A DNA stretch of 64,000 bases, taken from positions 62,001 to 126,000 of the forward strand of contig NW_026856818.1 of NCBI RefSeq assembly GCF_026571515.1, read 5' to 3'. Numbering within the stretch: position 1 is the first letter of the stretch; each line of letters opens with the position of its first letter. This document shows, one piece after another, positions 1 to 3,000 of this stretch. Origin of the DNA: Ruditapes philippinarum (taxonomy: Eukaryota). Position numbers: made by a program.

Positions 1-3000
1 TCCAAGGAAGAGCGATACGAGACAGAACGTTTAACCGTTATGGGAATACTTTACCCGACAACATCACAGCACACAGGACTACCCAAAAGGTACCCATTTG
101 GGAACCGGAAAGAGTTACGGGGCTTTTCTAAAGGGTCCAGGATCTTGACAACATGGTTTTCATTTAAATATTTAAAAAAATATATATGAATACTGAGGAG
201 GCTTCGTCTTATAAGTTACGCGCTATTTCAAAGTGAATCAGATGTCAAAATATCCATACTAAAAAGAAGCCAATAAAAACAGTATAACATTCTTATTATC
301 GTCAAGAATGCTCAATTTTCTCGTTGATTTATGAGTTCTTTCGCTTTATGATCTTATCTTAATACAATTTTTTACTTGATAATAACTACAATTATTACGG
401 TAATACCATTACGGTAATATCACCATTCTTTGAAAACCTGAGTTATTGTAAAAAAAAAAAAGGTTTTGCAAAGTTTGGCTATTTTTATTCCATTTCAATA
501 TTTTTTTTTAATTATTTACGCTCTTACCGAAATGATGTTATCTCCAAGCAGTATCTTGTTAGAATTTGCAGCTGGTGTACCAGGTACAACTTTATGTACA
601 AATAGCAGTTGCTTATCACCACCTCCTTTTATTGTTAAACCAAAAACTCCAGAAGCTTTCTCTAGGATAACCGTTCTTAAATACATAATAAATAAATAAT
701 TTATTCATAAAACAGATTTTGTTAATCGGCAAATCTCTGTCTCCATTGACAAGATAACGGCAATGACAAACATGTGACAAATAGTTTATTTCTGAATTTC
801 TGAAAGACAATTTGAACATTTTGTTCGAAAATAAATCATACTGATATTTCCATTCACAATTACGATACAAGCTTAACATAAATATGACTTAGATACTTTA
901 ACTCAGTGAAACAAATAACCAGTATCTAATTTTTAATCAGCTGTGAAGTAGCCAATGACGGTATAATAGATCGCTGACCTCCGCTTAAGACTATACCATT
1001 TGTGGGCAATTAAATCTAATAATATTTTTAATTCATGTTCTCAACAGTATTTAAGAAGACAAAAAGAGACAAAGACACATACCTTGGGTTCCTGATACCC
1101 TAAAATAGATAAAGAAGAACTCAAAGTCAGTTCAAAATTTAAAAGAAGAGATCACATTCAGGCCAAAGTTCTATGCCAATATTTCACCATTACTTTAATT
1201 ATTTTATGAGTATCATTATTGTAATATTACCTTGACATTTAGTGTACAGTTACGAGCTATATTTATCAATCTGATTAAAACCAGCTCCCAAAACGTACAC
1301 ACTGTAGAAAAAAGTATATCTGAACTTAAGTTAGATTGCATTTTGTCAAGCTGTCATCATGTATCCATTTATGAAATAAATTTGACTTTCTAAAACCGCC
1401 AATAGGGGACTTAAATAATAATATAATCAATATTTTGTAAAATGCATGCTCACATATTTGTCCAGTTCATCATCTGAAAAACATAACGTATCTTTTTATA
1501 AAATGAAACAAAATAAAATTTATGACAATATGAAGACATACTTAGAAAATGCTAAATAGACGATTGTCAAATATTTCCGAATAACGAGCGCTTAATGTGA
1601 AATGGCATTTGCGTGTCATTTAAAAAATAAATAGGAATCATTTAGTGCAATTTAATCATTTTTCTTACCTGGACCTCTAAGATATAAGTCACGTCCCTTG
1701 CATTTTTCAACTTCTTGTTCAATGTTTTCATTTTTCAGAAACCTATATTTTGTCCCAATAGTCCTTTTGCCAATTTCTATTAAATCTTCTTCTATTTCCT
1801 TTAATCGCTTTCTTAACCATAAGGCCATGACAAAGTTACCGGTTGGCTCATTTTTCTCCATGCCGGCCTTAGTTTTCATTGATGATAACTCATCTGTTAT
1901 ATTAGATACTTCTACCTTTAGCTTCCCTAATGCACTCAAGGTATCAGTTTTTATAAAACTGGCCTGTTTGCATGCATCAAATATGAGTTTGTCTATTTTT
2001 TCCAGTATCTCTTGCTTAAATCGCTCAGCATCACAAGTGAATTTTACATGTGCAGCTTTCATTTTCGCAATATTTCTATGTATTTCTTTCTCGTATTCTT
2101 TAATTTCGTTGCTGCAATTTTCTATTTCTTTAACAACCTCTTCTATATACTCATGTTCGTTTTGTCCCCTTGTCACATCTGATATATATAAAACTTCACA
2201 TGTTTTATGCTCGTGTATTATGCATTCTCCGCAACCAACTATTTCGTGAGCTTCACAGTAGAAGTTTATTTTCTCTTCAACATGCTTTGGACATTTGTCT
2301 ATCAATCCTACTGGCTTTATTTTTAAAGCAGATGGTGAACCACAATATGCATAGAGAAACACGTGGTTTCTGCAATGTTTGCCCTTCCGGTGATGTTGAA
2401 AACATTTACTGCACATATTCTCTTCACATTCTTTACAACATCCGTCAGCAGTAATGTCGTCTCCATCTTCTGCACACGGTTCACAAACAATATGTCCTTT
2501 TCGTCCAGATACTTCCATTTTAGTAGTTAAATTCTCTATGCTATAACGAAACTATAAATACTGTATTTAAAGCTTAAACACATACAACGCTTTACAAGTA
2601 AATAATTGAAATATCGATCGATAAATAGTGTACAGGTTAAGGCCTAGGTATTTATATAGACTTTATACAAACTATATTTATCATACTGTAAAGAGTTTCA
2701 CCTATATTACCCTGGATTAAAACTACGGCGCCTCAACAGTGACAAAACTTTTTTGCACAATCACAACAAGAAAATATATGGCAAACAAATATCCTTTAAA
2801 TTGGACTAAATAAGGTATTAATACAGGTTCTAACACGACCCGCATTTTCCCTATTGAACATAGAAGAACCGAATGCTATAAAATCACTGTTTGACGTTCT
2901 ATATTTAGACATGTGACGTAATCATTATACACGTGACGTAACCACGCGCTGACAATAAGTACGGAAACAAATCAGGCGCAATTTTGCTTAATATCAGGTA

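What the first reader, a model, noticed from the sequence alone, without database searches (positions are those of the whole stretch)
528..2518. Hidden PDZ exon makes a B-box/coiled-coil/PDZ fusion protein
Seen: exon 675-528, absent from the ORF track, joins in frame through two micro-exons (20 and 17 nt) and encodes a PDZ beta-A to beta-D segment with the carboxylate loop K-ASG-VFGL. Knowledge: TRIM-like proteins typically end in PRY-SPRY, NHL, FN3, PHD-bromo, MATH or ARF domains, and PDZ is not a standard TRIM C-terminus. The segment resembles DLG-type PDZ3 (EPR.V.....GLGF.I.GG...GD.ILS). Inference: exon shuffling produced a RING-less TRIM scaffold that binds C-terminal peptides.
Basis: partly seen in the sequence, partly recalled or inferred. 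Interest (0 to 1): 0.78.

Follow-up and report, generated by a model that had tools for sequence, protein, structure and literature searches.

The report
Mollusc B-box gene with downstream PDZ exon
A RING-less B-box/coiled-coil gene of a mollusc-like genome is followed on the same strand by a real exon encoding the first half of a PDZ domain; the two may form one unusual but unproven fusion protein.

Summary
The PDZ exon is real. Window 675..528 (-) has AG/GT borders and matches Pfam PDZ above the curated cut-off (32.0 vs 23.2 bits, profile 2-51 of 81). It is also the most coding-like segment downstream of the B-box exon. Exon 1 (2518..1669) is B-box1/B-box2/helical, related to TRIM28 (E 1.8e-8), with no RING.

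The in-frame join is not evidence by itself. In the 993-nt gap, 24 single and 771 paired AG..GT units restore the frame.

A head-to-head paralogue (gene B, 4822..5713, 49% identical, dS 1.23) gives independent evidence:
- **17-nt micro-exon:** conserved with its splice sites (rank 2 of 311 pairs; 1 of 500 nulls).
- **20-nt micro-exon:** not significantly conserved (rank 50 of 361).
- **Competing route:** a conserved acceptor opens a 71-nt exon that also stays in frame.
- **Gene B:** no PDZ exon in the window.

The second PDZ half lies outside the window. None of the 30 nearest Atlas clusters lists PDZ.

Verdict: the fusion is plausible (about 0.5) and unproven. If true, it is a new variant of a known kind, of modest interest.

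The parts
1669..2518 (-). Gene A exon 1: 283 codons plus 1 nt (phase-1 donor). Encodes the RING-less B-box1/B-box2/helical region.
   Evidence: ORF. TRIM28 B-box1-B-box2-coiled-coil match, E 1.8e-8, residues 15-177. 49% identical to gene B. dN 0.36 and dS 1.23.
2360..2488 (-). B-box1 (residues 11-53)
   Evidence: Pfam ANCHR-like_BBOX residues 11-53, E 0.049, below cut-off. Aligned to TRIM28 B-box1. The same region of gene B scores 23.9 bits.
2204..2299 (-). B-box2 (residues 74-105)
   Evidence: Pfam zf-B_box 23.5 bits, just under the 24.1 cut-off, E 6.3e-5. TRIM63, TRIM3 and TRIM54 B-box2 hits. Gene B's homologous segment scores 34.6 bits, above cut-off.
1697..2158 (-). Long helical, putative coiled-coil region (residues 121-274)
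   Evidence: Alignment to the TRIM28 coiled coil up to residue 177. AF2 gives helices 121-220, 225-262 and 265-274, but at mean pLDDT 39.8, so this is secondary structure only.
1454..1473 (-). Weakly supported.
   Evidence: AG/GTGAGC borders. Donor in the top 8 of 70, acceptor 35 of 59. Similarity to gene B 5866..5888 is not significant.
1231..1301 (-). Alternative 71-nt candidate exon behind a conserved acceptor. It stays in frame if it replaces micro-exon 1; if both are included a stop follows within a few codons.
   Evidence: Strong acceptor (13 of 19 pyrimidines) and donor (score 6). Acceptor block 1298..1332 is conserved with gene B 6046..6080, 77% over 35 nt, and is rank 1. Frames read.
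1083..1099 (-). Micro-exon 2 (17 nt), conserved in the paralogue
   Evidence: Best acceptor of 59 and one of the two best donors of 70. 11 of 17 nt identical to gene B 6118..6134, with the same length, phase and GTATGT donor. Rank 2 of 311; 1 of 500 nulls.
528..675 (-). PDZ exon (148 nt, enters in phase 2 and leaves in phase 0): N-terminal half of a PDZ domain
   Evidence: PF00595 32.0 bits, profile 2-51 of 81. 96 PDB sequences at E<=1; nearly all of the 60 listed are PDZ proteins. Atlas top cluster is PDZ, score 0.95. Top codon-usage segment downstream of exon 1, 6.4 against 3.0 for the next.
4822..5713 (+). Gene B exon 1: head-to-head paralogue with the same phase-1 donor at the same alignment column
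   Evidence: zf-B_box 34.6 bits.
5866..5888 (+). Gene B candidate micro-exon (23 nt), the positional counterpart of micro-exon 1
   Evidence: Acceptor in the top 5 of 56, donor in the top 3 of 64. Its length differs from micro-exon 1 by 3 nt, so it gives the same phase. Similarity is not significant.
6118..6134 (+). Gene B micro-exon 2 (17 nt). The conserved acceptor block 6046..6080 lies 42 nt upstream.

Best explanation
Gene A is a multi-exon gene of a mollusc-type, lineage-expanded family of RING-less B-box1/B-box2/coiled-coil proteins. Its large first exon is spliced from a conserved phase-1 donor, through one or two very short linker exons, to an exon that opens a C-terminal PDZ domain. 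The 17-nt linker exon is the well-supported one; the first link is either the 20-nt unit or the 71-nt exon. The PDZ is completed by exon(s) left of the window.

Inferred mechanism: the helical region dimerises as in TRIM proteins and the B-boxes promote higher-order assembly. The PDZ docks the assembly onto C-terminal tails of partner proteins. With no RING, the protein would act as an adaptor or scaffold, possibly together with RING-bearing paralogues, rather than as a ligase.

Shown: the domains, the splice signals, the frame compatibility, and conservation of the donor and the 17-nt exon. Inferred: that the exons are actually joined in mRNA, dimerisation, and peptide binding.
For: - The PDZ exon is real and starts exactly at the domain border: profile position 2 falls at the second residue.
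- It is the top coding-like segment downstream of exon 1.
- Exon 1 of both paralogues ends at the same column with ...CCAG|GTAA. Read-through stops after 5 codons in A and 12 in B.
- dS 1.23 means neutral sequence is near saturation. The 17-nt unit is nevertheless conserved with both splice sites, in order along both genes (E 0.035; rank 2 of 311 and 1 of 500 nulls). It is therefore a used exon that needs a downstream acceptor.
- The PDZ exon's acceptor is in the top 7 of 59. It lies 407 nt downstream in the matching phase.
- B-box2 to PDZ spacing is about 190 residues, within the TRIM range quoted.
- No RING-like Cys/His-rich segment lies in 2519..4821.
Against: - There is no transcript evidence.
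- Frame restoration is cheap: 24 single units and 771 pairs do it.
- Micro-exon 1 is not conserved.
- Gene B keeps the micro-exon but has no PDZ exon anywhere in the window. The best non-self tblastn hit has E 1.4. 0 of 10 coding-like segments downstream of it match any Pfam family at E<=0.01; one match at E 0.084 is noise.
- 0 of the 30 nearest Atlas clusters list PDZ, and their lengths (277-346 aa) fit B-box-only proteins.
- The PDZ ORF has its own in-frame ATG at 686..684.
- Only half a PDZ is visible.
Confidence: 0.5

Rival explanations
1. Two transcription units, or a mostly PDZ-less isoform. The B-box/coiled-coil protein ends shortly after exon 1. For example, using micro-exon 1 and then the conserved acceptor at 1302/1301 gives a stop within 9 codons. 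The PDZ exon would then belong to a neighbouring gene running leftwards out of the window, perhaps starting at the in-frame ATG 686..684.
For: - The nearest Atlas clusters are B-box-only mollusc proteins of 301, 346, 277 and 292 aa, and none lists PDZ.
- The most conserved non-coding block between A and B is an acceptor (A 1298..1332, B 6046..6080). After micro-exon 1 it leads to an early stop in both genes (read).
- Gene B has no PDZ exon.
- An in-frame ATG lies 4 codons before the domain.
- A phase match has a 1 in 3 chance.
Against: - This does not explain why the 17-nt unit with a strong GTATGT donor is conserved at dS 1.23.
- 407 nt is little room for a separate promoter and 5' end.
- An ATG in an 11-codon AT-rich open stretch is unremarkable.
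- Atlas clusters were matched with exon 1 alone, so longer fused proteins could rank lower.
Confidence: 0.33
2. The PDZ exon is an orphan relic: a shuffled or duplicated half-domain that is no longer part of any expressed protein. Genes A and B are both C-terminally simple B-box proteins.
For: Only half a domain is visible, and 0 of 7 stop-free segments in 1..527 are PDZ. There is no paralogous copy in the window to show constraint.
Against: - The reading frame is intact.
- A 32-bit Pfam score for 49 residues, positive codon-usage score and canonical, high-ranking splice sites on both sides argue against decay.
- The missing half may simply lie beyond the window edge, 527 nt away.
Confidence: 0.1

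Closest known systems
RING-less TRIM-like proteins (B-box/coiled-coil without RING, e.g. TRIM16, TRIM29) and the TRIM28 B-box1-B-box2-coiled-coil module
   Same: The order B-box1, B-box2, helical region matches. The best solved relative is TRIM28, E 1.8e-8. No RING is present. RING-less TRIMs are described in the abstracts listed (PMC3357404, PMC8720877).
   Different: The C-terminal domain would be a PDZ. PDZ occurs 0 times in the main texts of two TRIM family surveys (PMC3503706; PMC2533329). Their supplementary files were not seen.
LNX / PDZRN family (RING plus PDZ domains)
   Same: A zinc-binding N-terminal module is combined with PDZ domain(s) that select partners by their C-termini (abstract of PMC5679597).
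   Different: LNX has a catalytic RING, no B-boxes, no TRIM-type coiled coil, and several PDZs. No sequence relationship was seen here beyond the generic PDZ match.
Coiled-coil plus single-PDZ adaptors such as GOPC/PIST (recalled; not returned by any search)
   Same: The same design logic: a dimerising helical region followed by one PDZ.
   Different: These have no B-boxes. This is a resemblance from memory only and was not tested.
Lineage-specific expansions of B-box proteins in bivalves
   Same: The Atlas neighbours are mollusc B-box clusters of 61-173 members. B-box is among the domains recombined in Crassostrea immune-type expansions (passage of PMC8195603).
   Different: That paper's B-box and PDZ mentions concern TRADD-N proteins, not a B-box/PDZ protein.

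Membership tests
TRIM / RBCC (tripartite motif) | N-terminal RING finger | tested here: not met
   No RING family among 12 Pfam hits at E<=1. The ORF starts 11 residues before B-box1. Only 11 open codons lie upstream, and no Cys/His-rich segment lies in 2519..4821 on either strand. The protein is TRIM-like, not a full TRIM.
TRIM / RBCC (tripartite motif) | B-box1 followed by B-box2 | tested here: met
   Aligned over both B-boxes of TRIM28. zf-B_box at residues 74-105 scores 23.5 bits, just under the 24.1 cut-off. Paralogue B scores 34.6 bits, above the cut-off.
TRIM / RBCC (tripartite motif) | Coiled coil directly after B-box2 | tested here: inconclusive
   The alignment to TRIM28 continues into its coiled coil, to residue 177. 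AF2 gives long helices at 121-274 but at pLDDT 39.8. No coiled-coil predictor was run.
TRIM / RBCC (tripartite motif) | C-terminal domain 170-220 residues after B-box2 (Sardiello et al. 2008) | tested here: met
The rule is quoted from the passage. This holds only if the splice model is right.
PDZ domain (PF00595) | Profile score above Pfam's gathering threshold | tested here: met
   32.0 bits against 23.2 for the exon alone. 33.9 bits for the 56-aa ORF.
PDZ domain (PF00595) | Carboxylate-binding loop (basic residue, then Gly-hydrophobic-Gly-hydrophobic; motif recalled) | tested here: met
   In the HMMER alignment to DLG4 PDZ3, the Lys aligns to Arg and Phe-Gly-Leu aligns to Leu-Gly-Phe. The first Gly is Val.
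PDZ domain (PF00595) | Complete fold including the second helix that sets ligand class | not testable with these tools
   Only profile positions 2-51 of 81 are in the window. 0 of 7 stop-free segments in 1..527 match PDZ. The remainder would lie left of the window.
LNX / PDZRN | RING finger plus multiple PDZ domains | tested here: not met
   No RING. Only one PDZ exon in 64 kb.

The most novel reading that the evidence does not exclude
Molluscs possess a previously undescribed TRIM-like class, B-box1/B-box2/coiled-coil/PDZ. Its PDZ is attached through conserved micro-exons. A conserved alternative acceptor (A 1301, B 6077) switches between a PDZ-less short form and a PDZ-bearing long form. The same oligomerising scaffold could then be tethered to, or released from, C-terminal peptide ligands by splicing.
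Probability: 0.25. Interest if true: 0.5.

Novelty: new variant of a known kind. Interest (0 to 1): 0.35.

Why it matters
TRIM-type modules are usually described as carrying a small, fixed set of C-terminal domains (Sardiello et al. 2008, abstract and passages). A PDZ would add a new way of choosing partners. It would also be a concrete case of domain recombination in the large B-box expansions of molluscs. The case is also a methodological warning. In AT-rich introns, micro-exons that repair a reading frame can almost always be found (795 solutions here). Only conservation in a paralogue separated the credible one from the others.

Tried and rejected
- **Three-frame Pfam scan downstream of gene B:** Replaced by stop-free segments given by reference.
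- **Regex scan for PDZ motifs:** badly designed. It missed even the known exon, so it was discarded in favour of tblastn.
- **AlphaFold2:** exon 4 alone gave pLDDT 63.0 and exon 1 with the A/B alignment gave pLDDT 39.8. Both are too poor, so no fold search was run.
- **Search for gene B's downstream exons:** nothing found by tblastn, by codon-usage ranking or by Pfam. The top-ranked segments are a GC-rich repeat.
- **RING exon upstream:** not found.
- **Literature:** five full-text searches returned no paper describing a B-box plus PDZ protein. Supplementary tables were closed.
- **Relatives from other genomes:** not attempted. A census of the zf-B_box plus PDZ architecture therefore stayed unchecked.

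Full report
**Source and limits**

The window is AT-rich (29-41% GC in 2-kb bins) and eukaryotic, with introns. The ESM Atlas places the B-box exon next to clusters whose recorded members are mostly Mollusca. I do not take it for human. The two N runs (9455-9597 and 44081-44233) were not filled. The open sequence collections hold no animal genomes. No relatives from other species could therefore be fetched.

**The observation**

On the minus strand, the ORF 2518..1652 runs into a consensus donor (CAG|GTAAGA after 1669).
- 1473..1454, 20 nt, ...TTTTTCAG| and |GTGAGC
- 1099..1083, 17 nt, ...CTATTTTAG| and |GTATGT
- 675..528, 148 nt, ...TATTTAAG| and |GTAAGA

The lengths 850+20+17+148 give 345 codons. 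Exon 675..528 lies in a 56-aa ORF (516..686), too short for a 60-aa ORF track.

On its own, the 49-residue translation matches Pfam PDZ (PF00595) at E 1.6e-7. The score is 32.0 bits against a curated cut-off of 23.2, over profile positions 2-51 of 81. The whole 56-aa ORF scores 33.9 bits. Against PDB chains it hits 96 distinct sequences at E<=1, and nearly all of the 60 listed are PDZ proteins. The Atlas top cluster is a PDZ cluster with score 0.95.

The 'DLG PDZ3' flavour is weak. The DLG4 hit (E 1.4e-5) adds up three domains, the third being the best stretch at 12.9 bits. The best single-domain hit is beta-2-syntrophin at 22.6 bits.

In that alignment the Lys and the Phe-Gly-Leu of the exon sit on the Arg and Leu-Gly-Phe of the carboxylate-binding loop. 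Val replaces the first Gly.

The rest of the domain is not in the window. None of the three frames of 1..527 shows it, and 0 of 7 stop-free segments of 20 aa or more match PDZ.

**The upstream exon**

Its 283 residues align to the B-box1/B-box2/coiled-coil part of TRIM28 (6h3a, E 1.8e-8, residues 15-177) and to B-box2 of TRIM63, TRIM3 and TRIM54. Pfam zf-B_box scores 23.5 bits, just under the 24.1 cut-off. The paralogue described below scores 34.6 bits.

There is no RING. No RING family appears among the Pfam hits. Only 11 open codons precede the ATG. No Cys/His-rich segment lies in the 2.3 kb up to the neighbouring gene.

AlphaFold2 of this exon failed (pLDDT 39.8). It shows only long helices at 121-274.

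**Is the in-frame join meaningful?**

By itself it is not. The 993-nt gap holds 43 AG and 57 GT sites, giving 140 AG..GT units of 6-60 nt. Of these, 24 single units and 771 pairs restore the frame into the PDZ exon without a stop.

**Independent evidence from a paralogue**

Gene B (exon 1 at 4822..5713, + strand) lies head to head with gene A. It is 49% identical over 278 residues (E 6e-83; alignment). Nei-Gojobori estimates are pS 0.605, dS 1.23 and dN 0.36. Both copies are therefore under constraint, and neutral sequence between them is close to saturation.

Both first exons stop at the same alignment column with ...CCAG|GTAA. Downstream, three things line up in order along both genes.

1. 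**A short AG..GT unit about 150-195 nt after exon 1.** It is 20 nt in A and 23 nt in B, which gives the same phase.
2. **A 35-nt block that is 77% identical, ending in TTTTTTCTACAG.** It spans A 1332..1298 and B 6046..6080, and was also found as inverted repeat I13.
3. **The 17-nt unit.** It spans A 1099..1083 and B 6118..6134, with 11 of 17 nt identical and the same length, phase and GTATGT donor.

Scoring exon letters alone, the two conserved elements head the list of 352 pairs, and 0 of 300 shuffles reach the best identity. With the splice contexts included, the acceptor block ranks 1 and the 17-nt unit ranks 2 of 311 pairs. Only 1 of 500 Markov-resampled versions of gene B yields any pair as good as the 17-nt one.

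The first unit fails the equivalent test. Its peptide similarity ranks 50 of 361, and 200 of 200 shuffles reach it.

A crude, transparent splice-site score was used: matches to the recalled U2 donor consensus, and pyrimidines in the 19 nt before the AG.

| Site in gene A | Rank |
|---|---|
| Donors after 1669 and 1083 | the two best of 70 GT sites |
| Donors after 1454 and 528 | top 8 of 70 |
| Acceptor before 1099 | best of 59 AG sites |
| Acceptor before 675 | top 7 of 59 |
| Acceptor before 1473 | 35 of 59 |

**A competing route**

The conserved acceptor block opens a candidate exon 1301..1231 (71 nt) with a strong acceptor and donor. Reading:
- If this exon replaces micro-exon 1, the frame into micro-exon 2 and the PDZ exon is again kept.
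- If both are included, a stop follows within 9 codons.
- In gene B the same acceptor (first exon base 6077) gives a 58-nt exon that ends with the 17-nt unit in the same frame. After the 23-nt unit it gives a stop in the third codon.

The block may therefore mark an alternative or terminal exon producing a protein of about 300 aa without a PDZ. That length is what the nearest Atlas clusters show (301, 346, 277 and 292 aa; B-box families only; 0 of 30 hits list PDZ). I cannot decide between these readings without transcripts.

**For and against the fusion**

For:
- The 17-nt exon is conserved at a divergence where introns should be scrambled, and it ends in a strong donor. Something downstream must therefore be spliced to it.
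- The next strong acceptor followed by coding-like sequence is the PDZ exon, 407 nt away, on the same strand and in the right phase.
- A codon-usage score trained on four long ORFs of the window ranks that exon first downstream of exon 1 (6.4 against 3.0 for the next segment).
- The PDZ profile starts at the exon's second residue, as expected for a domain-bearing exon.
- On the model, the PDZ begins about 190 residues after B-box2. This lies inside the 170-220 residue spacing that Sardiello et al. 2008 report for TRIM C-terminal domains (passage seen).

Against:
- Gene B, which keeps the micro-exon, has no PDZ exon anywhere in the 64 kb. The only significant tblastn hit of the PDZ peptide is itself, and the next has E 1.4.
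- 0 of 10 best coding-like segments downstream of gene B match a Pfam family at E<=0.01; one match at E 0.084 is noise. A GC-rich repeat (about 6200-6930) and a repeat-bounded element (8670-9924, containing an N run) follow its micro-exon.
- The PDZ ORF has an in-frame ATG four codons before the domain, so an independent start is possible. An ATG in an 11-codon AT-rich open stretch is unremarkable, however.
- A phase match alone has a 1 in 3 chance.

**Likely function (inference)**

If joined, the product is a RING-less TRIM-like scaffold. The B-boxes and a TRIM-type helical region would provide dimerisation and higher-order assembly, and a single PDZ would bind C-terminal tails. The ligand class cannot be read because the second helix is outside the window. 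Without a RING the protein would act as an adaptor, possibly together with RING-bearing relatives. RING plus B-box clusters are among the more distant Atlas neighbours (3 of 30).

**Comparison with what is known**

- **Membership:** TRIM/RBCC is not met for the RING, so the protein is 'TRIM-like'. PDZ is met for score and loop, and untestable for completeness.
- **Functional analogues:** the closest are LNX/PDZRN (RING plus PDZ; abstract of PMC5679597). From memory only, coiled-coil plus PDZ adaptors such as GOPC are also similar in design.
- **Literature:** PDZ occurs 0 times in the main texts of Marin 2012 (PMC3503706) and Sardiello et al. 2008 (PMC2533329). Five full-text searches found no description of a B-box plus PDZ protein.
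- **Caveat:** supplementary tables and a domain-architecture database could not be consulted. 'Not described' therefore rests on those searches only.
- **Context:** bivalves are known for recombining B-box and other adaptor domains in large expansions (passages of PMC8195603). One more combination would not be a great surprise.

**Verdict**

The exon and the PDZ assignment are confirmed, and one of the two micro-exons is independently supported. The fusion is the most economical reading (about 0.5) but is unproven. A PDZ-less main isoform or a separate PDZ gene remains a serious rival (about 0.33). If true, this is a new variant of a known kind and of modest interest.

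Noticed in passing
window 1298-1332 (-) and 6046-6080 (+): A 35-nt block, 77% identical between the two paralogues, ends in TTTTTTCTACAG. It is the best-conserved non-coding element between them. It looks like an acceptor for an alternative or terminal exon, and its role is unexplained.
   Followed up: partly
window 4822-6134 (+): Gene B, the head-to-head paralogue, keeps an intact 297-codon first exon and the conserved 17-nt micro-exon. No downstream coding exon could be found for it in the window.
   Followed up: partly
window 3036-3114 / 3130-3208: A near-perfect palindrome (79-nt arms, 85% complementary, 15-nt spacer) lies in the 2.3-kb region shared by the two divergent B-box genes. 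It could be a small foldback element or a regulatory hairpin.
   Followed up: no
window 8670-9924: An element bounded by inverted arms (80 nt, 85%) and filled with short CGTGCGCACGAGAT-like repeats encloses the 143-nt N run 9455-9597. It looks like a MITE or foldback transposon.
   Followed up: no
window 6200-6930: A GC-rich repeat-like insertion lies directly after gene B's micro-exon 2. It tops the codon-usage ranking but has no Pfam match.
   Followed up: partly
window 34951-36114 (+): A single-exon 387-aa ORF matches Pfam Tocopherol_cycl over the whole profile (2-335 of 335, E 4.3e-19). From memory this family is mainly plant, cyanobacterial and bacterial, so its presence in an animal-type genome may be worth a look.
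   Followed up: no
window 18017-19423 (+): A 468-aa ORF carries a Core-2/I-branching enzyme (Branch, GT14) domain, E 1.5e-42. It is followed by a low-complexity hydrophobic tail that may be read-through past a splice site.
   Followed up: no
window 56397-56741 (+): An ORF fragment matches the start of the Cu2_monoox_C domain (copper type II ascorbate-dependent monooxygenase, E 8.6e-7). It is probably one exon of a multi-exon gene.
   Followed up: no
window 41241-41315 (+): The only Rfam and ARAGORN hit is tRNA-Thr (TGT). It lies in the most GC-rich 2-kb bin of the window (41% GC). It could be a genuine tRNA gene or the head of a tRNA-derived SINE.
   Followed up: no
window 30001-32000 and 17038-17499: There are two simple-sequence tracts. 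One is a G/T-rich stretch with GC skew 0.31 that yields Cys/Val-rich pseudo-ORFs at 31280-31673. The other is an Asn/Asp-rich AAT-type tract.
   Followed up: no
window 24613-26406 (+): A 597-aa ORF has internal Ser/Asp/Thr-rich repeats and a basic C-terminus. It has no Pfam match.
   Followed up: no
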